From contig CAVVKW010000004.1 of assembly GCA_963749035.1 (NCBI GenBank), positions 594,531-658,530 on the forward strand: 64,000 nucleotides of DNA. The letters run 5' to 3'. Made by a program: the position numbers and the translations under genes. The notes below the pieces were generated by a model, which saw nothing but the letters and a program-made list of their open reading frames with translations, was not told the DNA's origin and ran no database searches. Below are positions 18,771-63,127 of this stretch, in pieces. Position 1 is the stretch's first letter, and each line of letters starts with the position of its first letter. Origin of the DNA: an uncultured Verrucomicrobiae bacterium (lineage in GTDB: Bacteria; Verrucomicrobiota; Verrucomicrobiia; Chthoniobacterales; JAATET01).

Positions 18771-18894
18771 GGCCAGTCAAGCTCAGCCACCCCGATCGGG
18801 TGTTCGAATTGCTGGTTGTCACCATCTGCAATCTGATCGTCCGCCAACCCCGAGAGCGAAGCGGCTAGGGGTTGGCTGCAGCGCCTTGTTCGCT
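18771..18894 (-). repeat. attC site 1 (distal-most; one R box replaced by the IS3 end)
   Basis: Starts ggccag|GTCAAGCTCAGCC directly after the IS end. The other box is gttcgct. Confidence 0.7.
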
Positions 18895-19392
18895 GTGTAT
18901 TGTGTCGATAAATTCCGCTTTCTGAGTCTCGGACTCAAAAACTCGAAGGGGAATGGTGCAAATGCCCCTAGGTCCGAACCAGATCTCCAATCTGCCTTCA
19001 TTCTCGCAAACATCTACGAGGTGTTCGAGCGGGAATTGCGTCACTATGTCCATGCAGGAATACGTAAGAGTGCCGCTTGCGATTGTAAACTCGGCCCTTA
19101 CAGGAAGTCTTCCTTCTGTCTGTTTTCTTATAAACTTAGTTACGCGATGCTTGATTGAAGGAATGAACGTGAAGAAATTCAAGGCCGCGCCAATAGCAGC
19201 TCCTAATAGGCCACCAAGTATGATCACGTTTACTGGATGCTCGCATAATAGGAACGCGACGACTAAACCTAGCGGGACTGCCCCGCGAATAGTCGAAATC
19301 ACGCGCTTTTTCGCAATCGGACTCGTCCGAAAATATTGGCGTAGAGCCGGTGCGGACATGTCATTCAGGTCGGCGAGGTATGAAATCGTCAT
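18865..19392 (-). CDS. cassette ORF, membrane protein (hypothetical)
   Basis: ATG at 19392 (MTISYLADL...). The track ORF start at 19482 lies inside attC 2. Two TM segments. Ends in the attC-encoded tail SEQGAAANP. Confidence 0.65.
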   Translation of the reverse strand: MTISYLADLNDMSAPALRQYFRTSPIAKKRVISTIRGAVPLGLVVAFLLCEHPVNVIILGGLLGAAIGAALNFFTFIPSIKHRVTKFIRKQTEGRLPVRAEFTIASGTLTYSCMDIVTQFPLEHLVDVCENEGRLEIWFGPRGICTIPLRVFESETQKAEFIDTIHSEQGAAANP

Positions 19393-19404
19393 TTGTAATT
19401 TATC

Positions 19405-19528
19405 AGCGAACGTCAAGCTCAGCCATTCTAAACGGGTGAATGCAAACGACTGGTGATCAACTGCCGGTAGCGGGTCGCGCAACCCAGCCGCGCAGCGGCT
19501 AAGGGTTGGCTACAGCGCCTTGTTCGGC
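19405..19528 (-). repeat. attC site 2
   Basis: Boxes agcgaac/gttcggc (read on + strand), 124 bp. Confidence 0.88.
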
Positions 19529-19885
19529 TGTATTTCTCATATTAGGGCGAGATGCCTTGAATTGAAAAAGTGCAGTGGAACCGCGGTGCTCTGCCAACGC
19601 AACTAGGGCGACAATCGCGATGATGCTGATTGGTGAGAGTGTAGTAAGAAGGGCGCCAAGCAAGCCGACAAGCGATCCCTGATAAAAGTAATTCAGATCG
19701 GAGCGAAACAATAGACCATAAATAATCACCGGAATGCCGACCAGCAAAGCAGCTTTTCCGAGGGCCATACGAATGGCTCCGAATATATCATCAAGATCAA
19801 TGTAGACATGAAAGTATTTTCCAATCTCGAGAATCAAGGGGGTTGCGATTGCAATAATTATGCACAGGATCAGAAGTCTTTTCAT
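19499..19885 (-). CDS. cassette ORF, small integral membrane protein
   Basis: 128 aa with 4 hydrophobic segments. Tail AEQGAVANP. Confidence 0.7.
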   Translation of the reverse strand: MKRLLILCIIIAIATPLILEIGKYFHVYIDLDDIFGAIRMALGKAALLVGIPVIIYGLLFRSDLNYFYQGSLVGLLGALLTTLSPISIIAIVALVALAEHRGSTALFQFKASRPNMRNTAEQGAVANP

Positions 19886-19943
19886 AAATATTGAGATTGC
19901 GCTGACGGATTTCCGGAGTGCGAGGATAAACCTATTTCAATGA

Positions 19944-20069
19944 GCCGAACGTCAAGCTCAGCCACCCCGAACGGGCGTGCGAGCTATGGATTGTGATCTG
20001 CTGAATTTGACGCTTTCGATCAACTGAACCGGAGCGCGGGTAGTGGTTTGCTGCAGCACCTTGTTAGAC
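19944..20069 (-). repeat. attC site 3
   Basis: Boxes gccgaac/gttagac, 126 bp. Confidence 0.9.
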
Positions 20070-20381
20070 GAGCTATTGAAGTTGGGACCTGCCGGAATCG
20101 TGATCGAGATTTGGTAGAGCTCGCTCATCGTGTGCCACGAAAATCCACGAGCAATGGACGGTGATCATATGCGACGAACGGGCGCGAAAAGGTGGACTTC
20201 GTGGCACTCGATGAGCTTCTACGGCTATCAGTGGCGTGTTTGGCAGATTGATGTGGAGCCGAAGGCGCGGAGTAAATCTACCTCGACCGATCATATCATA
20301 TTCTCGAGGCGTAGATTCTCGATTCAACGCGACCCCACGATTCGTCGTGCACTGTGATAGGTCGCGGCCTGTATCTCTGTA
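20070..20381 (-). repeat. cassette family C, divergent copy C1
   Basis: Carries the same hairpin arms, GCTCATCGTGTGCCACGAA (20123-20141) and TTCGTGGCACTCGATGAGC (20198-20216), with two compensatory pair changes relative to C2-C5. A 106-codon frame is open here only. Confidence 0.6.
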
Positions 20382-20508
20382 GTCTAACGTCAAGCTCAGC
20401 CACCCTGAGCAGGTGACCGAGCCGCCAGTGGCAGATTCCTACAGGTTGCACGGCCGCTAACCCCAGCCAGCGAAGCGGCTAGGGGTTGGCTGCAGCGCCT
20501 TGTTCGGC
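20382..20508 (-). repeat. attC site 4
   Basis: Boxes gtctaac/gttcggc, 127 bp. Confidence 0.9.
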
Positions 20509-21534
20509 TCAGATCTCAACCTCAATGTATGTTCCAATGCCGGAATTTGCGATGGCTTCGTTGATCTCAGCAATTCGTTTTTGTATTCGTGGCCAGCTTG
20601 TAGAAAGAAGGACAACAATAGCAATCCGTCTTCTTTTGGCTCTTCGCTATTCCGAGTGGGTTTACAGAGTGGGCCTGAAAGCTGGGATTTGAAGGTCGAG
20701 TTGACTGGCTTTGAGGTAGGCCATGGTTTGGAAGTTGCGGAGGGATCGGTATCCGCGAGCCAATCGTTTGGCGAGTTGAAGTAACCCGTTGATGGCCTCG
20801 ATGGCGCCGTTGGTGACGCGGGTTTTGAGGAAGGCGACGATTCCCTTCCAGTGCCGCTGGATGGAGCAAGCCAGCTTGCGGAAGGGTTCGAGCCGACTGA
20901 GTTTGGCACTCTTGCACCACCATCGCAGGCTTTCTTCATCTTCTCCGGCGAGGATGTCCTGAAGGGTCTCGCGCAGACCCAACGCGCGACCGAGTTTGGG
21001 ATGGAGGCGGATCAGATTGCGGCGTTCGGCTTGCTGAGCTTCTGTTCGGCTCCATGAGTTGCCCCGCAAGGCCCAGAGTACTCCGCTCAGATCGGCTCCC
21101 TGCCGGGCGATCATCTTGCGCACCCGATCGCAAGCCTGCCCGGCCATCATCATGAGATGGAAGCGATCGAAGACAACCTCTGCCCACGGGAAGCTTTCCC
21201 TGGCCCCTTTCTGGTAAGCCTCGCTCATGTCCATACTGATGAGGCGGATCTGTTCGGGGCAGGCTTGGTGGGCGGGCAACTCTTTGGCGAAATCAGCCAA
21301 GGCTTGAGCGCTGCGACCTTCGACCATGAGCAAGAGTTGTGGGTGTCGGCGTCGATGATGTTGATCACGTAACGGTAACCCCGGCGTGAACTCGTCTCAT
21401 CAACGCAAATCCGCGTGACTTCCGACCAACTTTCCCGGGCATGAGCACTTTCCACGTAATGTTGGGCCACGCGCCAGAGTCGGGTATTGAGGTGGTGCTG
21501 AAAATGCGGACACGGGATAGACCAAGAAAAAGCC

Positions 21535-21885
21535 GTGAACGAAAAACCAAGAGAAACGAACAAGGGGCGACGATTTGACGAAGAGTTCAAACGAAGCGCC
21601 GTGGAAATGCTGGAAAGCGGAACGCGAAGCGCGACACAACTAGCGCTTGAGCTGGGGATCTCGACGTGGAGCCTGGGCAGGTGGAAGAAGCTTTACGGGA
21701 GAACCGCCGCCGGGACGGGTCCGGAGGGGGGAGGAGGACCCGTCCCGGCGGCGGGGCGGCCCCAGGACCTCGCCAGCGAGAACGCTCGCCTGAGAAGGGA
21801 ACTGGAGTTCACCACCCGCCAACGAGACATTTTAAAAAAAGCCTGCGCCATTTTGGGTCAGGAACCGTGGAACGCTTTGCGCTGA
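21535..21885 (+). CDS. IS3-family transposase OrfA
   Basis: RRFDEEFKRSAVEMLESG...ELGISTWSLGRWKK...LRRELEFTTRQRDILKKA. A6G slippery site at ~21835. Confidence 0.85.
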   Translation: MNEKPRETNKGRRFDEEFKRSAVEMLESGTRSATQLALELGISTWSLGRWKKLYGRTAAGTGPEGGGGPVPAAGRPQDLASENARLRRELEFTTRQRDILKKACAILGQEPWNALR

Positions 21886-22760
21886 TCGAGACGATGGAAA
21901 AGAACAGCTTTACCCTCAAGGAGCTTTGCCTGGCTCTGGAAGTCAGTCGCAGCGGCTACTACGCCCACGGGAAAAAGACCGAAGGTCTGCGCCAGCGCGA
22001 AGACGCCGATCTGAGTGATCGGATCGAAGCGGCTTTCCACGAGAACCGCCGAACCTACGGGACCCGTCGGCTGCGCGTCGTCCTTGATCGAGAAGGGCAA
22101 GTCTGCGGGCGACGACGTATCTCGCGCTTGATGTCCCAGAAAGGACTATGTGCCTTGCGCAAGGGTCGTTATCGGCCCCGCACGACCGACAGCTGCCACC
22201 CTCATCCCATCGCCCCGAATCGGCTCTTGTCCGATACGACCAACACGACCTCGTCTACCCCTGGGCAGACATGGGTGGCTGACATCACCTACCTACCCAC
22301 CGATGAAGGCTGGCATTATCTGGCTGCCGAAATGAACCTCGCTTCCCGTCGGATCGTTGGCTGGAAAACGGGATCAACCATGGAGAGCACCCTCGTCGAA
22401 AGTGCCTTCAGCCGCGCCGTCTTGCTCTCAGGAACTCGTCCACAACTCCACCATTCCGACCGCGGCAGCCAGTACGCCGCTGGGGCTTTCCGCTCCCTGC
22501 TCGACTCCCACGGCGTGACGCCGAGCATGAGCCGACGCGCCAACTGCTATGATAACGCCGCCATGGAGTCGTTCTGGTCCACTCTCAAAACCGAATGCTT
22601 CCACGCCGGCCCTCCGGCCACCCAAGCCCAAGCCGACGCGATGCTCTTCGACTACATCGAAACCTTCTACAATCCACGCCGACTCCATAGCTCCCTCGAC
22701 TACCAATCACCCCTCGAATACGAAAACTCACTCAATAACCTAACAACCAAAACAGACTAA
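21838..22760 (+). CDS. IS3-family transposase OrfB (DDE, via -1 frameshift)
   Basis: rve motifs WVADITYLPT, HHSDRGSQY, YDNAAMESFWSTLKTE. The start coordinate is approximate (frameshift product). Confidence 0.8.
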
Positions 22761-23172
22761 CTTCCCCTGTCCACTTTTTCGGCTCCACTTCATACTGGAA
22801 GAAATCCAGATGCCTCCACTCTTTGCTCACGCTGTCGTGGGTCCCACAACGCTGCCCACGCTGCGGACACGCAAACCGTTCTCCACGAGCAAAATCGAGT
22901 TCCAAGAGCAGCCGTTTGGGGTCACCCGCAAATTCGCATCGCTCCACTTTCCAGCCTTCATCCAACGCCAATGCCGCGGTAAACAGTGATTCGGGTGTCA
23001 TCCCTGGACTCTGATCCCCGACTATGGGCCGCTTCAAGTCGCTTCCGACCCCACCGCCCGATTCAACATCGCGCCGTTTGCTGCCTGCCTACCCACTCAT
23101 TTCAGCGAAGACCCATAAAGTAAAGAACCAGTATGCCTCTGAGAATGTCGATTGGGATGTTTTCATATTATA

Positions 23173-23298
23173 GCCGAACGTCAAGCTCAGCCACCTCGAA
23201 CAGATGGTCGAACTACTGATTGTGATCTGGAGAAGGTGACGCTTCCGAGCGTCTGAAAAGGAGAGCGGCTAGGGGTTGGCTGCAGCGCCTTGTTCGAC
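23173..23298 (-). repeat. attC site 5
   Basis: Boxes gccgaac/gttcgac, 126 bp. Confidence 0.9.
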
Positions 23299-23663
23299 TG
23301 GATCGGCTGGTGGTCCGGGAAAGGCATCGAGCTACTGGGAGCGTCGTATACTTTGGTTCAAATCGCGAAGCCACTTCAATGATTGGACGAATCCAGAGAG
23401 AAGGGTTCGACTTGGCAGGGATATATTTACGACCGCGGAAGTGATGAGGGCTGGATGTGGCTGGAATGAACAGGGACCAAGCTACGAATTTTTTTTCATC
23501 CGCCGGAGGCTGCTCACGGACATCGGTCGAAATCCGGTGGAGCTGATCTTGTCTTCGGGGTGGCCTCTCAAGTCGTCGCAGTCTGAACCAATGGTAGTTT
23601 GCCGGGTTTGTCGTCAGCTTCAGAATACCGAATTTACTCATCCGCCGGAGGCTGCATCATGAA
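23299..23663 (-). repeat. cassette family B, copy B1 (apparently non-coding)
   Basis: ~365-bp unit shared by 10 cassettes. Contains two CATCCGCCGGAGGCTGC motifs (23497, 23639). Confidence 0.8.
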
Positions 23664-24883: not shown

Positions 24884-26017
24884 CCATTTCTATCTAAGAA
24901 TAGGACGTAAAAGTTTGTAGGAACTGTTTGTTTGAGAGAGCAGCCAGCCTTGACCAATCAAGGTGTTTACATTGGCGGGAGATTCCCAAAATTGTTTCAG
25001 CAGGCGGACGATGGCGGCTTCGATGTCGTCCAGAGTATCAAACAAGGCGTTGCCGATCTCGTCTTTGAGCTGGTCGAAGAGCTTTTCAACGGGATTGAGT
25101 TCTGGGCCATAGGCCGGAAATTGGAGGACGTGGATGCGCTCGGGAAGCGGATGAGAGCCCGCCTTTTGATGGAAGCCGGCACCATCCCAAATGATGACGT
25201 GATGGGCGCTCTCGTCGCTCTCGGCCAATTGACGCAGGAAGAAGTCGCTGACTTCCAGACTGAGCGTTGGGCTGAAAAAGAACTCGCTGGCGTTGTCTCC
25301 GTCAATCTCAAGCGCCGCGTAGAGGTGGCCCCACTGATATTTAGTTTGGTAGGGCGCGGTGGGTTTGACACCCCGCAACGTCCAAACCTTGCGGATCTCG
25401 CTGATCAGCCCATAGCGATGCTCATCAACCATCCAAACACGAACCTTTGCCTCACTCGGCAAGTCGAGGGCTTGAAGACGCTGGGCCAGTTCTTCTTTGA
25501 ATGCCAAGGCCGCGACCTCGTCTTTGCGAGCGTGAGTCTTGCGCGGCACTTTCAAGACTCCGCCGACTTTTCCCAACCAGTAATAAACCCCTTTGAGGCT
25601 GAGTTGCACGCCGTGATCTTCGCTCAGCCATGCCCGAACCTCCTTGGCCCGCTTCCAGCGACCTTGGCGCAGACCTTCCTTAAAGACTTCAATAAGCTCT
25701 GGACTCAGCGACGGCTCGTTGCCGGGCGGCTTCTTGCGTTCCAGCAAACCAGCTATTCCAGCCTCTCGATACCAACTCGCCCAGCGACCGACCGCTGAAC
25801 GGGCTCGAACGACCGCTTCAGCGACCTCTTCCATCGTGTAGTTGCCACTCATTCCCATTCGAACCGCTTGTAGCTTCTCAATATCTCGACGTTCGGTTGC
25901 CGCCTTTTCCGCTGCCTTGACCTCAACGAGATCTCCATCAATTCGAAACTTTTTTCCCATCGCCTAAACTACCAGATTCTTGGAATCTTGAATAGTCCTC
26001 AAGTTACATAGAAATGG
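24884..26017 (-). mobile_element. IS630-family insertion sequence
   Basis: IRs CCATTTCTAT(C/G)TAA at both ends. TA dinucleotide on each flank (24882-83, 26018-19). Confidence 0.85.
24890..25960 (-). CDS. IS630-family transposase
   Basis: 356 aa. HTH N-terminus, then WMVDEHRYGL, IIWDGAGFH, PAYGPELNPVEKLF (DDE). Confidence 0.88.
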   Translation of the reverse strand: MGKKFRIDGDLVEVKAAEKAATERRDIEKLQAVRMGMSGNYTMEEVAEAVVRARSAVGRWASWYREAGIAGLLERKKPPGNEPSLSPELIEVFKEGLRQGRWKRAKEVRAWLSEDHGVQLSLKGVYYWLGKVGGVLKVPRKTHARKDEVAALAFKEELAQRLQALDLPSEAKVRVWMVDEHRYGLISEIRKVWTLRGVKPTAPYQTKYQWGHLYAALEIDGDNASEFFFSPTLSLEVSDFFLRQLAESDESAHHVIIWDGAGFHQKAGSHPLPERIHVLQFPAYGPELNPVEKLFDQLKDEIGNALFDTLDDIEAAIVRLLKQFWESPANVNTLIGQGWLLSQTNSSYKLLRPILR

Positions 26018-26019: not shown

Positions 26020-26265
26020 TGACACGACAACACACGCGAACGGATTGATGGTCTTTTGCAGGTTTGCCCGTGGCATACAGGTTGCCGTCGTGGCGGTCGA
26101 TGAGCTCTCCAGCAACGGAAGTGTGAATATCTCGGTGGAGGTGAAGGTGAAGGGACGCTGATCTAAAGGAGGTGAATATCAATATGACTGCTGAACGCCT
26201 TGCAGACGATTAGGCACCCATTTTGCTTTCTGGCGTTCGCATACGAAGACTCCGCATTTCATTCT
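26020..26265 (-). repeat. cassette family A, copy A1 (truncated by IS630)
   Basis: Begins mid-element at TGACACGACAACACACGCG, directly after the IS630 TA. Confidence 0.8.
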
Positions 26266-27748: not shown

Positions 27749-27874
27749 GCCCAACGTCAAGCTCAGCCACCCCGAACGGGCGTGCGAGCTACTGATTGTG
27801 ATCTGCTGAAGGTGACGCTTTCGAACGTCTGAAACGGAACGCGGCTAGGGGTTGGCTGCAGCGTCTTGATGGAC
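27749..27874 (-). repeat. attC site 11 (GAT-type box)
   Basis: Boxes gcccaac/gatggac, 126 bp. Confidence 0.85.
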
Positions 27875-28185
27875 AGAATTTTATGGAACCGCCGCCTGGC
27901 AATTGAGTTATCAAACCTTCGAAGGATGCGCTCATCGAGTGACACGACAACACACGCGAACGGATTGATGGTTTTTTGCAGGTTTGCCCGTGGCATACAG
28001 GTTGCCGTCGTGGCGGTCGATGAGCTCTCCAGCAACGGAAGTGTGAATATCTCGGTGTAGGTGGCGGTGAAGGGAAGCTGATCCAAAGGAGGTGAATATC
28101 AATATGACTGCTGAACGCCGTGCAGACGATTACGCACCCATTTTGCTTTCTGGCGTTCGCATACGAAGACTCCGCATTTCATTCT
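27875..28185 (-). repeat. cassette family A, copy A2
   Basis: Shared ~310-370-bp unit. Hairpin arms at 27930-27951 and 28001-28025. Confidence 0.85.
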
Positions 28186-28310
28186 GTCCATCGTCAAGCT
28201 CAGCCACCCTGAACGGGCGACCGAGAATCTGGAAAAGGTGAACTGCCGGAAAGAGTCACCTCAACCCGGGCGCGAAGCGGCTAAGGGTTGGCTGCAGCGC
28301 CTTGTTCGGC
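28186..28310 (-). repeat. attC site 12
   Basis: Boxes gtccatc/gttcggc, 125 bp. Same attC body as sites 30 and 45. Confidence 0.85.
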
Positions 28311-28595
28311 TGCATTCTTAGTATTTTTCAAGGTCCGTTCAATCCGTGGATTGATTACAAATCCCCAATAAAGAAATACTGACATAATTATTAACGGAAG
28401 CTCCAAAAGCCAAAAATAGTTCAAAGACAGCAGATCAAGAATCGATGGTATTCCAAATGCAAAAATTAAAAGTGGCAATCGAAGCCACATAATGAATGGC
28501 TCTCTTATCTCAAGATTTCTCATAATGGAGCGGATCTCTGACGGCGATTTGTCAGATAATTCTTTTATCTGGCTATGACGCAAAATGAATTTCAT
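28281..28595 (-). CDS. cassette ORF, 104-aa membrane protein (copy 1 of 3)
   Basis: MKFILRHSQIKEL... with 2 TM segments. Tail AEQGAAANP. Near-identical copies at 38099 and 46820. Confidence 0.7.
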   Translation of the reverse strand: MKFILRHSQIKELSDKSPSEIRSIMRNLEIREPFIMWLRLPLLIFAFGIPSILDLLSLNYFWLLELPLIIMSVFLYWGFVINPRIERTLKNTKNAAEQGAAANP

Positions 28596-28602
28596 TGTAA
28601 TA

Positions 28603-28728
28603 GCCGAACGTCAAGCTCAGCCACCCCGAACGGGCTTCCGAGCTACGGGTTGTGATCTACTGGAAGAAGTGCTTCCGAGCATCTGAGACGGAACGCGGCT
28701 AGGGGTTGGCTGCAGCGTCTTGATGGAC
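28603..28728 (-). repeat. attC site 13
   Basis: Boxes gccgaac/gatggac, 126 bp. Confidence 0.85.
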
Positions 28729-29045: not shown

Positions 29046-29171
29046 GTCCATCGTCAAGCTCAGCCACCCTGAACGGGCGTGCGAAATGCGGAACGCAGTT
29101 CCGCCAGGAAGCGGCTACGAGTTGGGTGTGTCAGCACGCGGCTAGGGGTTGGCTGCAGCGCCTTGTTAGGG
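29046..29171 (-). repeat. attC site 14
   Basis: Boxes gtccatc/gttaggg, 126 bp. Confidence 0.85.
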
Positions 29172-29483
29172 CCGTATCTGTATGTAGCTTCCGGCTGTTG
29201 AATCACGGATGGCAGATCTGATTTCTTCGATGCGGACTTCGAGAAGTTCAATGAGTGTAAAAGGGAGTTCCACGATTGAGACGGTTCGATTTGATAGATT
29301 CTGCTGATATCGAAGATTCTTGTCACCCGTGACAAGAACATCGAATTGACCATCAATGAGCTCCACCAATGAGCCATTTTTTACTCCAGTCCAACCTTTA
29401 AATCGAACGGTCACGACGTCGAATTCTTGCAACAAAAGTCGAAGGTCGATGGGCAAATTTTCGTCAAGAATGACTGTCTTCAC
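29166..29483 (-). CDS. DUF5615-like (PIN-like) putative toxin
   Basis: GTG start at 29483 (VKTVILDENLPIDLR...), aligned to the paralog at 61194..61511. The stop TAA lies in the R box CCCTAAC. Confidence 0.65.
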   Translation of the reverse strand: MKTVILDENLPIDLRLLLQEFDVVTVRFKGWTGVKNGSLVELIDGQFDVLVTGDKNLRYQQNLSNRTVSIVELPFTLIELLEVRIEEIRSAIRDSTAGSYIQIRP

Positions 29484-38413: not shown

Positions 38414-38420
38414 TGTAATA

Positions 38421-47134: not shown

Positions 47135-47141
47135 TGTAATA

Positions 47142-52871: not shown

Positions 52872-53125
52872 TGTATCTGAATTCGGTATAGAAAGAGGAG
52901 GCTTGAATCCGAGAATCTCTTTCTTCGTCGAGGAGTTGAAATAGAGAAGGATGTAAAATGGTAGAACCGCAAATGCCAATCCGACAATCGCAGCAAATGA
53001 TTTGATGAATCGCGAATTCGCGATCTCTTGCAACGTTGGGAATAAAGTAGAGCTAACTTCTAGCAATTTGAGCCAGCCCAAAGCAGGAAGAACTGAAGTG
53101 GAGCCGAAAAAGTGGACAGGGGAAG

Positions 53126-54048
53126 TTAGTCTGTTTTGGTTGTTAGGTTATTGAGTGAGTTTTCGTATTCGAGGGGTGATTGGTAGTCGAGGGAGCTATG
53201 GAGTCGGCGTGGATTGTAGAAGGTTTCGATGTAGTCGAAGAGCATCGCGTCGGCTTGGGCTCGGGTGGCCGGAGGGCCAGCGTGGAAGCATTCGGTTTTG
53301 AGAGTGGACCAGAACGACTCCATGGCGGCGTTATCATAGCAGTTGGCGCGTCGGCTCATGCTCGGCGTCACGCCGTGGGAGTTGAGCAGGGAGCGGAAAG
53401 CCCCAGCAGCATACTGGCTGCCGCGGTCGGAATGGTGGAGTTGTGGACGAGTTCCTGAGAGCAAGACGGCGCGGCTGAAGGCGCTTTCGACGAGGGTGCT
53501 CTCCATGGTTGATCCCGTTTTCCAGCCAACGATCCGACGGGAAGCGAGGTTCATTTCGGCAGCCAGATAATGCCAGCCTTCATCGGTGGGTAGGTAGGTG
53601 ATGTCAGCCACCCATGTCTGCCCAGGGGTAGACGAGGTCGTGTTGGTCGTATCGGACAAGAGCCGATTCGGGGCGATGGGATGAGGGTGGCAGCTGTCGG
53701 TCGTGCGGGGCCGATAACGACCCTTGCGCAAGGCACATAGTCCTTTCTGGGACATCAAGCGCGAGATACGTCGTCGCCCGCAGACTTGCCCTTCTCGATC
53801 AAGGACGACGCGCAGCCGACGGGTCCCGTAGGTTCGGCGGTTCTCGTGGAAAGCCGCTTCGATCCGATCACTCAGATCGGCGTCTTCGCGCTGGCGCAGA
53901 CCTTCGGTCTTTTTCCCGTGGGCGTAGTAGCCGCTGCGACTGACTTCCAGAGCCAGGCAAAGCTCCTTGAGGGTAAAGCTGTTCTTTTCCATCGTCTCGA
54001 TCAGCGCAAAGCGTTCCACGGTTCCTGACCCAAAATGGCGCAGGCTTT
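53126..54048 (-). CDS. IS3-family transposase OrfB
   Basis: Same protein as copy 1 with 2 substitutions in the track ORFs (D/N, Q/R). The 5' coordinate is approximate (frameshift product). Confidence 0.8.
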
Positions 54049-54351
54049 TTTTAAAATGTCTCGTTGGCGGGTGGTGAACTCCAGTTCCCTTCTCAGGCGA
54101 GCGTTCTCGCTGGCGAGGTCCTGGGGCCGCCCCGCCGCCGGGACGGGTCCTCCTCCCCCCTCCGGACCCGTCCCGGCGGCGGTTCTCCCGTAAAGCTTCT
54201 TCCACCTGCCCAGGCTCCACGTCGAGATCCCCAGCTCAAGCGCTAGTTGTGTCGCGCTTCGCGTTCCGCTTTCCAGCATTTCCACGGCGCTTCGTTTGAA
54301 CTCTTCGTCAAATCGTCGCCCCTTGTTCGTTTCTCTTGGTTTTTCGTTCAC
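54001..54351 (-). CDS. IS3-family transposase OrfA
   Basis: Identical to the protein encoded at 21535..21885. Confidence 0.85.
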   Translation of the reverse strand: MNEKPRETNKGRRFDEEFKRSAVEMLESGTRSATQLALELGISTWSLGRWKKLYGRTAAGTGPEGGGGPVPAAGRPQDLASENARLRRELEFTTRQRDILKKACAILGQEPWNALR

Positions 54352-54465
54352 GGCTTTTTCTTGGTCTATCCCGTGTCCGCATTTTCAGCACCACCTCAGA
54401 ACGAAAAGGGTGGCCTCAAATGCGACTAGCAAAAGTAGGCGTGAGAACTGATGCATCTTATAATA

Positions 54466-56839: not shown

Positions 56840-56966
56840 GCCTAACGTCAAGCTCAGCCACCCTGAGCGGGCAATCAAGCCAACCCTGAGGTGAGCTGCC
56901 AGTAGCGGGTCCGAGCAACCCCAGCCAGCGAAGCGGCTAGGGGTTGGCTGCAGCGCCTTGTTCGGC
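56840..56966 (-). repeat. attC site 62
   Basis: Boxes gcctaac/gttcggc, 127 bp. Confidence 0.9.
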
Positions 56967-57335
56967 TGTATTTGCCCGGATAAAGTAGGATTGTGTTGTT
57001 TGAACATCGCCGAACGATCTTCCGTCGAACTGAACCTTGACTTGAATTCCCGGCCTAGGCGAGAAGATTGGCAGAATACCGAAATATAAATGCTTACCCA
57101 GCATGCCGATCTCCTCTTCATCAGCAATAGTTAGCGTCTGTCCTCCAACTAGTTTCTTGGACTCCCCAGATTTGTGAATGACAATATAGCTAGGTCCTTC
57201 TGAAACTTTTATTACGAGCTTGCCGTTGTCCAAAGCTACGGACTCGAATGGGCTAGTTCCCCGGACATCTGCAGCAGCAGAAATATGTGAATAGACCAAG
57301 ATGGCAGACGCTATAGTAAGTAGTGGAATATTCAT
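56937..57335 (-). CDS. cassette ORF, secreted 132-aa protein
   Basis: Signal peptide MNIPLLTIASAILVYSHISAAA. Tail NTAEQGAAANP. Confidence 0.7.
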   Translation of the reverse strand: MNIPLLTIASAILVYSHISAAADVRGTSPFESVALDNGKLVIKVSEGPSYIVIHKSGESKKLVGGQTLTIADEEEIGMLGKHLYFGILPIFSPRPGIQVKVQFDGRSFGDVQTTQSYFIRANTAEQGAAANP

Positions 57336-57411
57336 GATTATTTAGGTAAGCAGTCGATTGGCACGTTTCAAGGTCGGTTTATCACAAACTATATCATCCA
57401 CCGGAGGTTGA

Positions 57412-57538
57412 GCCGAACGTCAAGCTCAGCCACCCTGAGCGGGTGAACGAGCCAACCCTGAGGTGAGCTGCCAATAGCGGGACCGATCAACCCCAGCCAG
57501 CGAAGCGGCTAGGGGTTGGCTGCAGCGCCTTGTTCGGC
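57412..57538 (-). repeat. attC site 63
   Basis: Boxes gccgaac/gttcggc, 127 bp. Confidence 0.9.
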
Positions 57539-57937: not shown

Positions 57938-58063
57938 GCCGAACGTCAAGCTCAGCCACTCCGAACGGGTGATCGAGCTATAGGTCGTGATCTACTGGAG
58001 GAAGATCGTGGATGAACGCTGGCAGCAGCGCGGCTAGGGGTTGGCTGCAGCGCCTTGTTCGCT
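57938..58063 (-). repeat. attC site 64
   Basis: Boxes gccgaac/gttcgct, 126 bp. Confidence 0.9.
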
Positions 58064-58867
58064 CCGACGGCGCACAAACGTCCACAGCATCCAGACGACA
58101 AGGACGGACGCGAGAAAACTGAAAGCGGTAGGCTCGGCAATAGTTTGCATCACCGCGGATGAGTCGAGTGCCTCGTTATAGATCCTCAGATCATCAAGAG
58201 TTCCTGCGAAAAATTCAAATGCACCAGCAGTTGAGCCTAAGGTAGATGCCGAGCTGTCTGTTGTTGAGGTCGTTGTCTGGGGGAACGAGATCGATCCGGG
58301 AAGTAGAAGCTGAAGTTCTCCATTGAAGTAAATATCAATCCTATCGTTCGCATAATCGATGACGCCAGCGATATGAATCCACTCGTCCAGTGCTACCTGG
58401 CTGCTCGTCACCCTGGACTGGAAAGATGATGAATCTGATGCACGCCCGGCGACCTCGACGAAGCCATCTCCGGAGATGAACATGCCTCCGCGACTCTCGA
58501 ATGAATTGTTTGTGGTGCTTATAAATGCAAGGGATCCAATGTCAGATGGATATGCATCGATCTTGATCCATGTAGTAAATGACGCGCCCGAGGCGTTGTT
58601 CAAGAGGTCGTTATTCTGCCCGTTTGGTTCTAGCGAAACATATGAGCTGCTGCCAGATAGACGTAACGCGAAAGAACCCACTTTCCCGGGGACATATTGG
58701 GCATTGATGATAGTTCCGTCGTCGACCGGTGACGATGTTCCGTCAGCTACTGCGGAATCAAAGGCAATGGATCCAGATCCCTCCTCAAATCCATATTGGG
58801 CGACGAGACCGGCATATCCAGACGATGTGAATAGAACGAACAGCAAAAAGGGTAGTTGAGATTTCAT
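58034..58867 (-). CDS. LamG/concanavalin-like domain protein with PEP-CTERM-like anchor
   Basis: Signal peptide. AQYGFEEGSG...GKVGSFALRLSGSSSYVSL (LamG-type). C-terminal AEP + TM + RRR, then the attC tail SEQGAAANP. Confidence 0.72.
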   Translation of the reverse strand: MKSQLPFLLFVLFTSSGYAGLVAQYGFEEGSGSIAFDSAVADGTSSPVDDGTIINAQYVPGKVGSFALRLSGSSSYVSLEPNGQNNDLLNNASGASFTTWIKIDAYPSDIGSLAFISTTNNSFESRGGMFISGDGFVEVAGRASDSSSFQSRVTSSQVALDEWIHIAGVIDYANDRIDIYFNGELQLLLPGSISFPQTTTSTTDSSASTLGSTAGAFEFFAGTLDDLRIYNEALDSSAVMQTIAEPTAFSFLASVLVVWMLWTFVRRRSEQGAAANP

Positions 58868-59334: not shown

Positions 59335-59460
59335 GTCTAACGTCAAGCTCAGTCACCCCGATGTGGTGTTTGAGCAACCAGTGAAAATCAACAGCAAGAA
59401 GAGGGTCCGCCAACCCCGAGAGCGAAGCGGCTAGGGGTTGACTGCAGCGCCTTGTTCGGC
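59335..59460 (-). repeat. attC site 66
   Basis: Boxes gtctaac/gttcggc, 126 bp. Confidence 0.9.
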
Positions 59461-59475
59461 TGCATCTTCTCACCG

Positions 59476-59739
59476 TCAGAATAAGTCTGAATGTGTTCCT
59501 GTTCGTTCTAGACGGAGTTCGTCTGGTGAAACCTGATAGATTAAGATCCAGTCTGGTTCTACGTGGCAGTCTCGTCTGCCTTTCCAAGGACCAGTCAATG
59601 AGTGATCTCGGTAGCGAGGAGGCAGTGCTTGACCAGATATAAGGATCTCGATGACTGTCTTGATCTTCTCAAGGTCCTTGCCTCTCTTTGTTTGTTTCTT
59701 GATGTCTTTCTTGAATTGTGAGGTCTGACTTACGGTCAC
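59476..59739 (-). CDS. yafQ: YafQ/RelE-family toxin
   Basis: FKKDIKKQTKRGKDLEKI...RDHSLTGPWKGRRDCHVEPDWILIY...TGTHSDLF. Confidence 0.75.
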   Translation of the reverse strand: MTVSQTSQFKKDIKKQTKRGKDLEKIKTVIEILISGQALPPRYRDHSLTGPWKGRRDCHVEPDWILIYQVSPDELRLERTGTHSDLF

Positions 59740-59996
59740 TTTTTCCAGGACGCGTAGAGGTCATCGGTGTTTCCGAAGGTCTCAATATCTTCACCCTTAT
59801 CGCTTTTTGCCAGGACCTCGGAAGTCAGGGCATTTGGAACGTGAAGTTCGAGAGGAAACTCTTGGCGAAGTGCAATCTGTTTGTAGAAAAGCCGGATCGC
59901 TTCCGTGGGCGTCATGCCCAAAGTATCCAGGATCGCCTCGGTTGCCTTCTTGGTAGCGGAATCGATCCGAGCGTGAATTATTGCTGATTGCGACAT
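59736..59996 (-). CDS. dinJ: DinJ/RelB-family antitoxin
   Basis: IHARIDSATKKATEAILDTLGMTPTEAIRLFYKQIA...FPLEL. 4-nt overlap with the toxin. Confidence 0.72.
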   Translation of the reverse strand: MSQSAIIHARIDSATKKATEAILDTLGMTPTEAIRLFYKQIALRQEFPLELHVPNALTSEVLAKSDKGEDIETFGNTDDLYASWKK

Positions 59997-60042
59997 GCTA
60001 GAACTGTATCACGGGTGATACACGATGCAATGAATTCTTATA

Positions 60043-60168
60043 GCCGAACGTCAAGCTCAGCCACCCCGAACGGGTGTTCGAACGACTGAATGTGATCTGC
60101 TGAAGGTGACGCTTCCGAGCGTCTGAGACGGAACGCGGCTAGGGGTTGGCTGCAGCGCCTTGTTAGGC
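60043..60168 (-). repeat. attC site 67
   Basis: Boxes gccgaac/gttaggc, 126 bp. Confidence 0.9.
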
Positions 60169-61073: not shown

Positions 61074-61199
61074 GTCCATCGTCAAGCTCAGTCACCCCGA
61101 TCGGGTGTCCGATCTACTGGTTGTGATCAACTGCAAACTGATCGTCCGCCAACCCCGAGAGCGAAGCGGCTAGGGGTTGACTGCAGCGCCTTGTTAGGG
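61074..61199 (-). repeat. attC site 69
   Basis: Boxes gtccatc/gttaggg, 126 bp. Confidence 0.85.
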
Positions 61200-61511
61200 C
61201 TGTATTTGTATGTAGCTGCCAGGTTCAGATACACTGATGGCAGATGTAATGCGATCAATGTATCTTGAGATGTCCTCTTTTTGGATCAGAGGAATCTCGA
61301 CAATCGAGATCCTTCGACCCGATAGGTTCTGCTGGTATCGCAACTTCGAGTCAGCGGTGACGAATACATCAAATTGTGAATCAATCAGTTGAATCAATTC
61401 GCCGTTTTGAATGCCGGCCCATCCTTTAAAGTAGACGGTGACTACATCGAATTCCTTGAGAGAGTGGCGAAGTGCAACAGGCAGGTTCTCGTCAAGAATT
61501 ACGGTCTTCAC
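61194..61511 (-). CDS. DUF5615-like (PIN-like) putative toxin, paralog 2
   Basis: MKTVILDENLPVALR... Clearly related to 29166..29483 by eye. Confidence 0.68.
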   Translation of the reverse strand: MKTVILDENLPVALRHSLKEFDVVTVYFKGWAGIQNGELIQLIDSQFDVFVTADSKLRYQQNLSGRRISIVEIPLIQKEDISRYIDRITSAISVSEPGSYIQIQP

Positions 61512-61704
61512 GAGTCATTTCTAAAAACTGAATTGCTTGATCTCTATCCACCGACGGGAAATCCTCCAAAAAATCTTCTACCGAGTTCCCTGCATTGATG
61601 TAGTCCAGAAGACTTTGGGCAAAGACTCTAGTGTTGCGGAACACCAATGCTCCGCTGACAATTTTCGGGTCAGAGTGAACTGGGCTGTGGCCGATCGTGA
61701 TCAT
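61492..61704 (-). CDS. DUF433-like putative antitoxin, paralog 2
   Basis: SDPKIVSGALVFRNTRV...LLDYINAGNSVEDFLEDFPSV. Confidence 0.68.
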   Translation of the reverse strand: MITIGHSPVHSDPKIVSGALVFRNTRVFAQSLLDYINAGNSVEDFLEDFPSVDRDQAIQFLEMTREDRNS

Positions 61705-61747
61705 ATATTGAGGTTAGCCGCGGAAGGTCGGATTGCAACCTTATTGG

Positions 61748-61873
61748 CCCTAACGTCAAGCTCAGCCACCCCGAACGGGTGATGAGGAATGAGTGATGGT
61801 CAACTGCCAATGGCGGGTGGCGCAACCCCAGCCAGCGAAGCGGCTAGGGGTTGGCTGCAGCGCCTTGTTCGGT
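61748..61873 (-). repeat. attC site 70
   Basis: Boxes ccctaac/gttcggt, 126 bp. Confidence 0.9.
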
Positions 61874-62143
61874 CCGTAACCGGTGCGTTTCGTAGACGTC
61901 GAGAAGCTCGGAAACCCTTACGCCAAAGATTGTCATTCCTTCTATATTGGCATTGGAGATTGAGACCTGAGATAGGTTCACATCGTCGAAAGTAGCAGCG
62001 GAGAAGTCGATGTCGGAGAATCGTGCGTTGCGGAAGGCAGCATCGCAAAAGACGGAACTGTTGAGGGAGACATTATTGAACCTCGCAGCATCCAGATTGG
62101 AGTTTTCGAAACTCGGAGAATCGGTTGAAGAATCGGTTTTCAT
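61844..62143 (-). CDS. pentapeptide repeat protein
   Basis: FENSNLDAARFNNVSLNSSVFCDAAFRNARFSDIDFSAATFDDVNLSQVSISNANI. Tail TEQGAAANP. Confidence 0.72.
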   Translation of the reverse strand: MKTDSSTDSPSFENSNLDAARFNNVSLNSSVFCDAAFRNARFSDIDFSAATFDDVNLSQVSISNANIEGMTIFGVRVSELLDVYETHRLRTEQGAAANP

Positions 62144-62492
62144 ATTTCGATGGTTCCAGCTTGTGGCGGGTTCGAGCTACAGACCCACGAGCTGATCTAG
62201 CGGTGTGGGGCTCTGACCACTGCGCCAGATGAGCGACTGCTGCAATGTTGTGATGCCAAGCAGCTTGGCGAGGTCTTCGTGGTCGCTGCTCTGAGCGAGC
62301 CACGATGAACGGTCGAACTATGAACTAGGGGAGACGTTGCTGGCCTGTAAATCGAGATCACACGCAGGATCATGGGAGGAATCGAGGGGTCGCGGGCGAT
62401 CCTCTCCATGATCCCTGCAAGTGTGATCGGTGGAACGTAATATTCACCGTTCGTTGACCAATGTATAAATATCTCATCCGCCGGAGGCTGAG

Positions 62493-62618
62493 ACCGAACG
62501 TCAAGCTCAGCCACCCTGAACGGGCGGTTTGAGGCTACTGGTGATCAACTGCCGGTAAGAGGTCCGCGCAACCCCAGGAGCGAAGCGGATAGGGGTTGGC
62601 TGCAGCGCCTTGTTCGGC
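62493..62618 (-). repeat. attC site 71
   Basis: Boxes accgaac/gttcggc, 126 bp. Confidence 0.9.
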
Positions 62619-62623
62619 TGTAT

Positions 62624-62905
62624 TTATTCAGCCTGCTCTGTCGGTGTCTGCTTCAACTTTGGGCGTCTCAGTTGAAGAAACCAAAAGAGTGCCCCAACGA
62701 CCCACCCGATTCCTCCAACGGCTCGAAGTGATGTCCATATTGGTTCGAACGGAGTGTCCCGCACTTCGGAATAATTCCGGGAGCAAACCTCGATCCATGC
62801 TACTAAGCCATCCCAGTAGCTTAAAATCTGGATAATCCCAACAATCATAAAGAGAGTCGCTACAAAGATCGGGACTCGAGAGTCTTTTATGTTTGTTATC
62901 TTCAT
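62624..62905 (-). CDS. cassette ORF, 93-aa membrane protein
   Basis: ATG at 62905 (MKITNIKDSRVPIFVATLFMIVGIIQIL...). The track ORF start lies in attC 72. Confidence 0.65.
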   Translation of the reverse strand: MKITNIKDSRVPIFVATLFMIVGIIQILSYWDGLVAWIEVCSRNYSEVRDTPFEPIWTSLRAVGGIGWVVGALFWFLQLRRPKLKQTPTEQAE

Positions 62906-63000
62906 GCAATCGAGGAAGAATGAAAAACGAGTATATCGTGCTGGCTGGCGAACCAAAATATTTGCCGAGTTTCGTTTGGTGTTATTTCGTGGATATTCGA

Positions 63001-63127
63001 GCCGAACGTCAAGCTCAGCCACCCTGAACGGGCGTCCAAGCTACAAGATAATGATCAACTGCCATTTGTGGGTGGAACAACCCTGGCCGCGCAGCGGCTA
63101 AGGGTTGGCTGCAGCGCCTTGTTGGGC
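63001..63127 (-). repeat. attC site 72 (last one visible)
   Basis: Boxes gccgaac/gttgggc, 127 bp. Confidence 0.9.

What the first reader, a model, noticed from the sequence alone, without database searches (positions are those of the whole stretch)
18771..63127. Very large sedentary-type integron array: 72 near-uniform attC sites in 44 kb, with no integrase in view
Seventy-two 124-129 bp imperfect palindromes recur every ~0.4-0.85 kb. On the + strand each reads RYYYAAC-GTCAAGCTCAGCCACCC...variable...GGCTAGGGGTTGGCTGCAGCGCCTT-GTTRRRY. This is the R''-L''...L'-R' layout of integron attC sites. The length uniformity is typical of sedentary chromosomal integrons rather than mobile ones.

Three observations place the cassettes on the minus strand:
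- Nearly all long ORFs are on the minus strand.
- The three copies of the MKFILRHSQ cassette keep the same attC body on their low-coordinate side (28186-28310, 38004-38128, 46725-46849). Their last 6 nt and their high-coordinate attC differ, which is what a G|TT crossover predicts.
- The + strand carries extra unpaired bases in its 3' arm (GGGGTTGGCTGCAG versus CTCAGCC-ACCCC), as expected for the recombinogenic bottom strand.

intI and attI should therefore lie to the right of 63.8 kb. An array of this size in a Verrucomicrobiota/Planctomycetota-like genome context would be among the larger arrays reported.
Basis: partly seen in the sequence, partly recalled or inferred. Interest (0 to 1): 0.75.

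Follow-up and report, generated by a model that had tools for sequence, protein, structure and literature searches.

The report
Giant chromosomal integron in soil Verrucomicrobia
The 44-kb repeat region is part of a very large chromosomal integron (a gene-cassette bank) in a soil Verrucomicrobiota bacterium; it is a new member of a known system, and its array seems to face replication the opposite way from other large integrons.

Summary
A profile search finds exactly 72 repeats of 124-129 nt, all on one strand, from 18776 to 63127. They have attC anatomy: a 7-nt R box, a 4-5-nt unpaired spacer, a 13-bp L stem with two bulges on one arm, and a variable centre.

- The ORFs lie on the minus strand and stop inside the attC.
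- Paralogous cassettes share their low-coordinate attC in 73 of 82 pairs.
- The bulges lie on the 3' arm of the + strand.
- In three related long-read contigs, IntI lies exactly where this orientation predicts.

The outer 6 nt of each site pair with the neighbouring site in 63 of 71 junctions, against 6 of 72 for the site's own box. That is the mark of a G|TT crossover.

intI is not in the window. A conspecific assembly (GCA_049793755.1) does encode an IntI. Relatives carry 98-214 sites per array, and one MAG has at least 411.

An IS3-family element truncates the left end of the array. This is a new member of a known kind. GC skew and gene-strand bias place the attC bottom strands on the lagging-strand template, which is not yet proven and would be the opposite of Vibrio-type large arrays.

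The parts
18776..63127 (+). Array of 72 attC sites. The recombinogenic bottom strand is the + strand. The array delimits 71 complete cassettes, which are transcribed on the minus strand.
   Evidence: nhmmer finds 72 hits. The consensus fold gives the R box, unpaired spacer, L stem with two bulges and compensatory pairs.
63128..64000 (-). The 72nd cassette, cut by the window end. Its ORF (63098-63826, 242 aa) ends ...QQGAAANP* inside attC 63001-63127. The array therefore continues beyond the window.
   Evidence: ORF list. No Pfam or PADLOC hit.
17519..18775 (+). A 1257-bp IS3-family element (HTH_Tnp_1 orfA, HTH_21 + rve orfB). It replaces the outer R box of the first attC and forms the left, intI-distal boundary of the array. 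It has no target-site duplication.
   Evidence: Pfam rve/HTH_21. Terminal inverted repeats at 17519-17534 and 18760-18775, with flanking CGG versus GTC. Gene calls in L081.
21488..22792 (+). A 1305-bp IS3-family element inside cassette c03 (364-aa transposase at 21666-22760).
   Evidence: Pfam rve, HTH_21, rve_3. blastn shows 99.5% identity to the copy at 53094-54398.
53094..54398 (-). Second copy of the same IS3-family element, in inverted orientation, inside cassette c56.
   Evidence: blastn 99.54% over 1305 bp, opposite strand.
24890..25960 (-). IS630-like (DDE_3) transposase of an IS that splits a family-B cassette. The cassette's remaining 246 bp lie at 26020-26265.
   Evidence: Pfam DDE_3, HTH_33, HTH_32. 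blastn of the cassette remnant against ten family-B cassettes.
59476..59996 (-). Toxin-antitoxin cassette: YafQ-family toxin (59476-59739) and RelB/DinJ antitoxin (59736-59996).
   Evidence: Pfam YafQ_toxin 1.6e-35 and RelB 3.6e-13. A 91.5% nt homologue lies in a relative's array.
61194..61704 (-). Two-gene cassette: DUF433 protein (61492-61704) plus a 105-aa partner (61194-61511). It is a putative toxin-antitoxin pair and has a paralogue at 29166-29676.
   Evidence: Pfam DUF433 1.7e-12. Paralogy found by clustering.
27755..28191 (-). Example of 'family B', a 10-11-copy cassette family of about 311-317 bp between sites. Its own recombination core is the paired non-canonical GTCCATC/GATGGAC. 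Other copies begin near 28609, 30738, 40300, 45798, 47671, 48943, 51826, 54472 and 60643.
   Evidence: Repeat families D6, D7 and D12. Clustering. R-box table. No Pfam hit.
28192..28608 (-). One of three 99-100% identical copies of the 104-aa MKFILRHSQ cassette. The others are at 38010-38426 and 46731-47147. Each has different neighbours.
   Evidence: Repeat family D15. Spacer identity 0.99-0.997, low-side attC 0.97-0.99, high-side attC 0.70-0.80.
1..17518 (.). Housekeeping chromosomal flank at 56-64% GC (the array is 48-52% GC). It contains the CobA/HemD fusion (8293-9807, minus), a response-regulator/kinase/FGE-sulfatase protein (12124-14487, plus) and MgtE (15445-16797, minus).
   Evidence: Pfam. 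Composition. 99.77% identical to a contig of GCA_049793755.1.

Best explanation
The region is the intI-distal part of a sedentary chromosomal integron in a soil Chthoniobacterales (Verrucomicrobiota) bacterium. Each roughly 126-nt repeat is an attC site. Its + strand (the bottom strand) folds into a hairpin with paired R boxes, an unpaired central spacer, an L stem carrying two extrahelical bases, and a variable loop.

An integron integrase (IntI) binds this folded strand and cleaves between A and C of the 5'-AAC box (G|TT on the top strand). That excises a cassette as a circle and reinserts it. The expected reinsertion point is attI, next to intI, and intI should lie to the right of the window, transcribed away from the cassettes.

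The cassettes are mostly small genes of unknown function on the minus strand, whose stop codon often lies inside their own attC. Toxin-antitoxin cassettes and IS elements are interspersed among them. An IS3-family element truncated the distal end of the array.

Shown here: the anatomy, the cassette boundaries, the crossover position, single-cassette duplication and movement, and the presence of a true IntI beside the same attC type in relatives and in a conspecific assembly.

Inferred: that IntI is active, that recombination goes through the single-stranded bottom strand, and that intI adjoins this particular array.
For: - **Count and regularity.** 72 co-oriented repeats with E-values of 1e-23 to 1e-36.
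- **Structure.** The consensus structure has 12 pairs plus two bulged bases on the 3' arm. Compensatory changes occur at two pairs: CG 61 / UA 8 / UG 2 and CG 53 / UA 7 / UG 12.
- **Folding.** Every bottom strand favours the R-paired hairpin. My pfold proxy has a median of 0.91.
- **Crossover signature.** The outer 6 nt of site i (right box) and site i+1 (left box) are perfectly complementary in 63 of 71 junctions (mean 5.85 of 6). Within a single site the figure is 6 of 72 (mean 3.97).
- **Orientation.** 57 of 71 cassettes have their longest ORF on the minus strand. ORFs end ...EQGAAANP* inside the attC. The low-side attC travels with the cassette in 73 of 82 paralogue pairs.
- **Single-cassette mobility.** The three-copy cassette has different neighbours at each site. 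Cassettes c12 and c42 are 100% identical, attC included.
- **IntI in relatives.** The exact attC arm occurs in 96 tiles of related MAGs, giving 1041 sites. IntI lies at the predicted end and strand in L108, L175 and L262. The L108 and L175 proteins score 422-426 bits on TIGR02249 against a cutoff of 265. The L108 protein aligns end to end with VchIntIA (2A3V, E=1.7e-84), including the integron-specific insertion.
- **IntI in the same species.** GCA_049793755.1 is 99.77% identical to the window over 10.5 kb and encodes IntI P0005.
- **Sedentary character.** intI-ABC-ABC synteny is shared by two species. The attC sites are uniform. The array GC of about 0.50 contrasts with the flank at about 0.60.
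- **Cassette content.** It is typical of sedentary integrons: mostly without Pfam hits, with YafQ/RelB and DUF433 cassettes.
- **Shared cassette pool.** 15 of 71 cassettes have full-length nt homologues in relatives' arrays, up to 97.7% identical, against about 75% for mgtE.
Against: - intI and attI are not in the window, and the source contig could not be recovered beyond 64 kb.
- At least one relative has a 185-site block with no intI at its proximal end (L104). Large integrase-less blocks therefore exist in this clade, and this array could be one.
- The IntI of the conspecific MAG sits on a 1.7-kb contig that cannot be linked physically to the array, and MAG bins can be chimeric.
- No experiment shows recombination.
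- The R boxes deviate from the textbook RYYYAAC/GTTRRRY.
Confidence: 0.93

Rival explanations
1. The array is a CALIN, a large cluster of attC sites that has lost or been separated from its integrase. Here the separation would be by IS-mediated rearrangement. In that case no intI lies just right of the window, and cassettes move only through an IntI encoded elsewhere in the genome.
For: - Relative CAWHTR07 has a 185-site block whose proximal flank (L104) has no IntI, 85 kb from a 195-site block that does.
- Relative bin.2.59 has a second 83-site block on another contig.
- The window's array is already truncated at one end by an IS without a target duplication.
- It contains two inverted IS3 copies that could drive rearrangement.
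Against: - All three arrays whose proximal end I could read next to an intI are complete integrons with the predicted layout.
- The conspecific MAG has an IntI.
- Recent single-cassette duplications, up to 100% identical, imply an active integrase acting on this array.
- Even as a CALIN it would still be an integron cassette array.
Confidence: 0.25
2. The repeats are a generic intergenic palindromic repeat family (REP/BIME-like, a MITE, or terminator hairpins) that spread among small genes, and have nothing to do with integrase recombination.
For: The repeats are imperfect palindromes located at the 3' ends of genes and could serve as terminators. No integrase is in view.
Against: - All 72 are co-oriented and confined to one low-GC block. 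There are none in the 18-kb flank or in the 21-kb mgtE flanks of relatives.
- The junction signature (63 of 71 against 6 of 72) and co-travel of the attC with its ORF (73 of 82) are specific to cassette recombination at a fixed point in the R box.
- In relatives the arrays end at a TIGR02249 IntI on the predicted side.
Confidence: 0.01
3. The cassettes lie on the + strand (the canonical drawing), intI once lay to the left, and the IS at 17.5-18.8 kb destroyed it.
For: The + strand reads ...AAC...GTT... as both strands of any attC do. An IS lies exactly at the left end.
Against: - ORFs lie on the minus strand and stop inside the low-coordinate attC.
- The low-side attC co-travels with the cassette.
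- The bulges lie on the 3' arm of the + strand, as in canonical bottom strands.
- In relatives IntI is always on the side corresponding to the window's right.
Confidence: 0.01

Closest known systems
Vibrio cholerae superintegron and other Vibrio sedentary chromosomal integrons (VCR/VXR repeats, IntIA; PDB 2A3V)
   Same: - Long, highly uniform attC sites of about 123-129 nt, with hundreds of cassettes in the relatives.
- Mostly ORFan cassettes.
- Interspersed toxin-antitoxin cassettes.
- IS3-family insertions inside cassettes (PMC11023631).
- Divergent intI.
- The relative's IntI aligns end to end with VchIntIA, including the integron-specific insertion.
   Different: - The host phylum is Verrucomicrobiota rather than gamma-Proteobacteria, which hold 93% of RefSeq complete integrons (PMC9024848).
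- The attC sequence is unrelated, and its core is mostly GYCGAAC/GTTCGRY with a tolerated ATC/GAT variant.
- The IntI carries a conserved N-terminal extension of about 200 aa.
- The attC bottom strands appear to lie on the G-rich (leading) strand, which is the lagging-strand template. In Vibrio they are always on the leading-strand template (PMC5371416).
Xanthomonas chromosomal integrons
   Same: These are the only sedentary integrons reported with attC bottom strands on the lagging-strand template (5 of 30 SCIs; PMC5371416).
   Different: The Xanthomonas arrays have at most 22 cassettes. Here there are at least 72 in the window and 98-214 per array in relatives.
CALIN elements (clusters of attC sites lacking integron-integrase; Cury et al. 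2016, PMC4889954)
   Same: Within the window this is formally an attC cluster with no integrase. A relative has a 185-site block with no adjacent intI.
   Different: CALINs are usually small, averaging about 6 attC sites (PMC9024848). This array is at least 72 sites, shows recent cassette duplication, and its species encodes an IntI.
Mobile integrons, classes 1-5
   Same: The recombination chemistry and cassette organisation are the same.
   Different: Mobile integrons have few cassettes, heterogeneous short attC sites, a transposon or plasmid context and resistance genes. None of those applies here.

Membership tests
Integron attC site | Imperfect palindrome with R''-L''...L'-R' boxes. The outer 7-nt R boxes carry the conserved AAC/GTT triplets. 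| tested here: met
   AAC in 60 of 72 and GTT in 62 of 72 sites. The remainder are a paired ATC/GAT variant. The L stem of 13 bp is conserved. The strict RYYYAAC/GTTRRRY pattern fits only 10-15 of 72.
Integron attC site | The folded single strand has an unpaired central spacer between the R and L boxes, and extrahelical bases on one arm only. That arm is the R''-L'' arm of the bottom strand. | tested here: met
   The bubble is GTCAA opposite GCCTT. Two single-base bulges (a T at alignment column 110 and a C/G at columns 116-117) both lie on the 3' arm of the + strand. Compensatory changes occur at 2 stem pairs.
Integron attC site | The crossover is inside the R box (G|TT), so each inserted cassette carries 6 nt of its own R' at one end and the rest of its attC at the other. 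| tested here: met
   Neighbour-site outer 6 nt are perfectly complementary in 63 of 71 junctions. Within a single site the figure is 6 of 72.
Integron attC site | Scores above threshold with the IntegronFinder attC covariance model. | not testable with these tools
   The model is not in Rfam, and a gathering-threshold scan of the window gave 0 hits. It is not otherwise available here.
Integron (complete) | intI encodes a tyrosine recombinase with the IntI-specific additional domain and lies adjacent to the array. | tested here: inconclusive
   intI is not in the window and the contig could not be extended. The feature is met in relatives with the same attC type: TIGR02249 scores of 422-426 bits against a cutoff of 265 for L108 and L175, an ungapped alignment of the L108 protein to 2A3V through the insertion, and IntI adjacent to arrays in L108, L175 and L262. 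A conspecific MAG encodes an IntI, but on an unlinked 1.7-kb contig.
Integron (complete) | An attI site and Pc promoter lie between intI and the first cassette. | not tested
   They lie outside the window. In L262 about 600 bp separate the last attC (ending at 9403) from the called intI start (10001). I did not dissect that interval.
Sedentary chromosomal integron | More than 10-19 attC sites, high attC sequence homogeneity, a chromosomal location, and vertical association with a lineage. | tested here: met
   72 sites with 75% mean column identity. The flank is housekeeping chromosome. The same attC type occurs in at least 6 related genomes. The intI-ABC-ABC synteny is shared by two species. 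The thresholds are from PMC9024848.
Sedentary chromosomal integron, 'large-array' orientation rule (Loot et al. 2017) | attC bottom strands lie on the leading-strand template. | tested here: not met
   The strand carrying the bottom strands is the G-rich one. The window flank has a skew of +0.079, with GC3 skew positive for genes on both strands. The relatives show +0.19 to +0.39, sign-adjusted, at the five intI-side flanks and two same-contig flanks. 65-80% of called-gene bp lie on that strand. Replication direction is inferred here, not mapped.

The most novel reading that the evidence does not exclude
[quoted passage not shown] The sites also fold readily (pfold proxy about 0.9).

In Vibrio this orientation causes runaway excision. 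Among the surveyed sedentary integrons it was seen only in arrays of at most 22 cassettes. If the reading is right, the current explanation of how massive arrays are stabilised (orientation relative to replication) is not general. This clade would then have to restrain excision some other way, for example through its IntI with the extra N-terminal domain, tight integrase control, or toxin-antitoxin cassettes.
Probability: 0.5. Interest if true: 0.72.

Novelty: new member of a known kind. Interest (0 to 1): 0.58.

Why it matters
Large sedentary integrons have been studied almost only in Vibrio. Soil is known to hold a vast pool of gene cassettes whose hosts are largely unknown.

This window and its relatives show that soil Chthoniobacterales carry Vibrio-scale or larger cassette banks, which long-read assemblies can recover. 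They share a clade-specific attC type that could be used to assign soil cassettes to hosts. There is also evidence that cassettes are exchanged between species: up to 97.7% nt identity for a cassette, against about 75% for a housekeeping gene.

If the replication-orientation reading holds, this clade is a natural counter-example to the rule linking array size to attC strand placement. That would make it a useful test case for how cassette arrays are kept stable.

Tried and rejected
- **Rfam.** A gathering-threshold scan of the window gave no family. Rfam has no attC model.
- **Recovering the source contig beyond 64 kb.** Exact-protein look-ups of the two rightmost cassette ORFs found nothing. 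An exact 46-nt probe found nothing in metagenome contigs. The only public contigs with this organism's MgtE are 2-10.5 kb long and break at the IS.
- **attC near mgtE in relatives.** There are none within ±10 kb. The array's position next to mgtE is therefore specific to this genome and probably results from the IS-mediated rearrangement.
- **The search for related loci with IntI.** That shows the family is ordinary but did not help with this genome.
- **PADLOC on the ten largest cassette proteins.** The only hit was a generic methyltransferase match to mad2, so no defence system was identified.
- **Greedy ORF strand counts in high-GC flanks.** They were uninformative. I replaced them with real gene calls.
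- **The window's IS types and the inverted attC blocks in relatives.** None of the three window transposases hits the tiles holding the orientation switches (L099, L114, L126, L127, L152), so the cause of those inversions is open.
- **An apparent 100% amino-acid match for cassette c27.** It did not hold at nucleotide level (70%), and I dropped it.
- **CRISPR, tandem-repeat and REP/MITE readings.** I rejected them on repeat length, ORF-bearing spacers, uniform orientation and the junction signature.

Full report
**1. Observation**

The repeat finder shows several overlapping families of a 126-nt repeat between 18.8 and 63.1 kb. An nhmmer profile built from 31 clean copies finds exactly 72 copies. 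All are on the + strand, with E-values of 1e-23 to 1e-36, running from 18776 to 63126. There are none in the first 18 kb.

Lengths are 124-129 nt, and 57 of the 72 are 126 nt. Spacing is 417-2791 bp. The array is 48-52% GC against 56-64% in the left flank.

**2. Anatomy**

The aligned sites have these parts on the + strand:
- A 7-nt outer box, mostly GYCGAAC.
- A spacer, GTCAA.
- A left arm, GCTCAGCCACCCC.
- A variable centre of about 70 nt.
- A right arm, GGGG-T-TGGCTG-C-AGC.
- A spacer, GCCTT.
- A 7-nt outer box, mostly GTTCGRY.

RNAalifold pairs the two arms. It leaves two single-base bulges, both on the 3' arm of the + strand, and a 4-5-nt bubble between the L stem and the R boxes. Two stem pairs show compensatory change: CG 61 / UA 8 / UG 2, and CG 53 / UA 7 / UG 12.

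This matches the R box, unpaired central spacer, L box with extrahelical bases, and variable terminal structure described for attC sites (PMC2727003, PMC5027507). The extrahelical bases sit on the arm that, in canonical sites, belongs to the recombinogenic bottom strand.

The strict RYYYAAC/GTTRRRY pattern fits only 10-15 of the 72 sites. The conserved AAC/GTT triplets are present in 60 and 62 of 72. The rest are a paired ATC/GAT variant.

**3. Cassette boundaries and orientation**

Two quantitative tests address these.

(a) The outer 6 nt of the right box of site i and of the left box of site i+1 are perfectly complementary in 63 of 71 junctions (mean 5.85 of 6). The two boxes of a single site are perfectly complementary in only 6 of 72 (mean 3.97). 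This is expected if each cassette was once a circle with a matched R''/R' pair that was opened after the first base of the R' box (G|TT) on insertion.

(b) Among 82 pairs of paralogous cassettes (at least 85% identity between spacers), the attC body on the low-coordinate side is the more similar in 73 pairs (mean identity 0.86 against 0.76). The attC belonging to each cassette therefore lies at its low-coordinate end, which puts the cassettes on the minus strand.

Other results agree:
- 57 of 71 cassettes have their longest ORF on the minus strand.
- Many of these ORFs end ...EQGAAANP*, with the TAG stop inside the attC.
They also have different neighbours at each location, so they moved as single cassettes.
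- Cassettes c12 and c42 are 100% identical, attC included. That points to very recent duplication.

**4. The integrase**

The window has none. The left flank holds housekeeping genes (CobA/HemD, a response-regulator/kinase/FGE protein, MgtE) and an IS.

MgtE is 85-86% identical to proteins of five long-read MAGs from one sample, labelled uncultured Verrucomicrobiae. The exact 28-nt attC arm occurs in 96 8-kb tiles, which belong to those MAGs and to Spartobacteria and Chthoniobacterales MAGs. The profile finds 1041 sites in these tiles.

Array sizes, all lower bounds, are:

| Contig | attC sites | Span |
|---|---|---|
| CAVRCI02 | 214 | 148 kb |
| CAWHTR07, block 1 | 195 | 123 kb |
| CAWHTR07, block 2 | 185 | 106 kb |
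| CAWDOJ03 | 153 | 104 kb |
| CAVUDH18 | 98 | 63 kb |
| CAVUDH16 | 83 | 61 kb |

I scanned the non-array gaps at array ends for large ORFs. That gave two tyrosine recombinases at exactly the predicted places: right of a + array on the + strand (L108), and left of a - array on the - strand (L175). Both score 422-426 bits on NCBIfam TIGR02249 (integron integrase, cutoff 265). The L108 protein aligns without a break to VchIntIA (2A3V, E=1.7e-84) through the integron-specific insertion that Xer recombinases lack.

A database search found further members. P0004 lies at 175,745-177,352 of CAVRCI02, about 600 bp right of the last attC of the 214-site array. P0002 and P0004 are both followed by two ABC-transporter genes, so the chromosomal position is conserved.

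P0005 (80% identical) is encoded on a 1.7-kb contig of GCA_049793755.1. Another contig of that assembly is 99.77% identical to window 8066-18565. Physical linkage to this array is not shown.

**5. Cassette content and IS elements**

Of 30 representative cassette proteins, most have no Pfam family. The exceptions are:
- a YafQ/RelB toxin-antitoxin pair;
- a DUF433 two-gene cassette, present in two copies;
- an S51 peptidase;
- a LamG-domain protein;
- a class-I methyltransferase;
- DUF5677;
- a lipocalin-like protein.

PADLOC adds nothing convincing. Two families, of 10 and 11 copies, make up about 30% of the cassettes.

Three kinds of IS are present:
- A 1257-bp IS3-family element at 17519-18775. 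Its right inverted repeat abuts the attC body at 18776, and there is no target-site duplication (CGG against GTC). The distal end of the array was therefore probably removed by an IS-mediated rearrangement. In relatives the arrays lie 70-100 kb from mgtE.
- Two 99.5%-identical 1305-bp IS3-family copies in inverted orientation, 30 kb apart.
- An IS630-like element that splits a family-B cassette.

IS3 copies within cassettes, and toxin-antitoxin cassettes, are also features of the V. cholerae superintegron (PMC11023631, PMC13108822).

**6. Exchange between species**

Fifteen of the 71 cassettes have full-length nucleotide homologues in the relatives' arrays. Several are 91-98% identical. mgtE is only about 75% identical at nucleotide level. 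This fits a shared mobile cassette pool with high turnover.

**7. Orientation relative to replication (lead, not settled)**

Loot et al. [quoted passage not shown] In the opposite orientation, arrays never exceeded 22 cassettes.

Here the strand carrying the bottom strands is the G-rich strand:
- Window flank: skew +0.079, with third-codon-position skew positive for genes on both strands.
- Array spacers: +0.06.
- Relatives: +0.19 to +0.30 in every 2-kb bin but one of the 21-kb mgtE flanks. This includes two cases on the same contig as an array.
- The five intI-side flanks: +0.22 to +0.39, sign-adjusted.
- Real gene calls place 65-80% of coding bp on that strand.

By the usual rule that the leading strand is G-rich and gene-rich, the bottom strands are on the lagging-strand template. 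That is the orientation which destabilises the Vibrio array when it is inverted experimentally (PMC13108822, PMC11023631). The sites also fold readily by my proxy, which has a median of 0.91. That proxy is not the published metric. Origin and terminus were not mapped, so I put this at about 50%.

**8. Comparison and verdict**

The literature already records integrons in Verrucomicrobia (PMC4889954), and Vibrio arrays of 178-303 cassettes (PMC11023631; bioRxiv 10.64898/2026.03.17.712381). In the library searched, no paper links integrons to Chthoniobacterales or Spartobacteria.

The finding is a new member of a known kind: a sedentary chromosomal integron array, correctly read by the first-stage reader.

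It is interesting for three reasons:
- its scale in the clade, outside Proteobacteria;
- the possible orientation anomaly;
- two smaller peculiarities, namely a tolerated ATC/GAT core and an IntI with a conserved N-terminal extension.

Noticed in passing
L108:4473-6167 (+), L175:225-1904 (-), L262:10001-11608 (+); proteins P0001-P0004, P0059, P0065: The IntI proteins of this clade are called at 513-552 aa. Their N-terminal extension of about 200 aa is conserved (GWRVAFT...WLGRFVRSIGRRRLDE..DV..FL...DWQV.Q...A...WAK.W). Its core aligns in a single BLASTP HSP with the N-termini of 471-476-aa RefSeq IntIs from Chromatiales. A weak Pfam hit (Phage_int_SAM_4, E=0.13) hints at a second SAM-like domain. 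Many environmental IntIs in the database are 440-500 aa rather than about 320 aa.
   Followed up: partly
window, 11 attC junctions, e.g. 27868-27874 / 28186-28192; also 28722/29046, 40413/40737, 60756/61074: A paired non-canonical recombination core, GTCCATC/GATGGAC (ATC/GAT instead of AAC/GTT), travels with the 10-11-copy family-B cassette. It occurs in 15% of the window's sites and about 4% of the relatives' 1019 scored sites. An ACC/GGT variant occurs in about 1%. The integrase evidently tolerates a change next to the cleavage point when it is compensated.
   Followed up: partly
window 1-64000; L001-L005, L261, L262: GC skew in the relatives is unusually strong (0.2-0.4 over 10-20 kb, whichever strand the genes are on). 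The window's own genome shows only about 0.08, with the same sign. The attC bottom strands are always on the G-rich strand, which implies the lagging-strand template. That is contrary to the rule for large sedentary integrons.
   Followed up: partly
window 21488-22792 (+) and 53094-54398 (-): Two 99.5%-identical IS3-family copies lie in inverted orientation 30 kb apart inside the array. Recombination between them would invert about 45 cassettes. Relatives contain inverted blocks of 10 and 22 attC sites (CAVRCI02, CAWDOJ03), but the window's IS types do not flank those blocks.
   Followed up: partly
window 17519-18775: A 1257-bp IS3-family element with TGGCCTGCCCC.../...GGGGCAGGCCA ends lies between the mgtE region and the array, with no target-site duplication. 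It replaces exactly the outer R box of the first attC. An 89%-aa relative of its transposase sits inside the array of CAWHTR07 (L123).
   Followed up: yes
L104 (CAWHTR010000007.1, 1,432,001-1,440,000): A 185-site attC block ends here with no IntI in the 5.3-kb proximal flank. It lies 85 kb from a 195-site block that does have intI. It is either a very large CALIN or a split integron. Together with a 31-site block on another contig, this MAG has at least 411 attC sites.
   Followed up: partly
window 56846-57417 (c61), 61754-62498 (c69), 62499-63006 (c70), 59341-60048 (c65, YafQ/RelB): Whole cassettes are 91-98% identical at nucleotide level to cassettes in arrays of different species, whose mgtE is only about 75% identical. 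That points to recent exchange of cassettes between species.
   Followed up: partly
window 58034-58867 (-): A 277-aa LamG-domain (Laminin_G_3) cassette protein has an N-terminal signal-like segment and a C-terminal hydrophobic segment followed by RRRS, which looks like a PEP-CTERM sorting tail. Its last residues (EQGAAANP) are encoded by the attC.
   Followed up: no
window 23276-23662, 33081-33434, 50942-51298 (+) and seven further copies: 'Family A' is a cassette of about 365 bp present in 10 copies. Its only sizeable ORF (117-128 aa, no Pfam hit) lies on the + strand, antisense to the array, and is frameshifted in most copies. It may be non-coding or may carry a reversed gene with its own promoter.
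   Followed up: no
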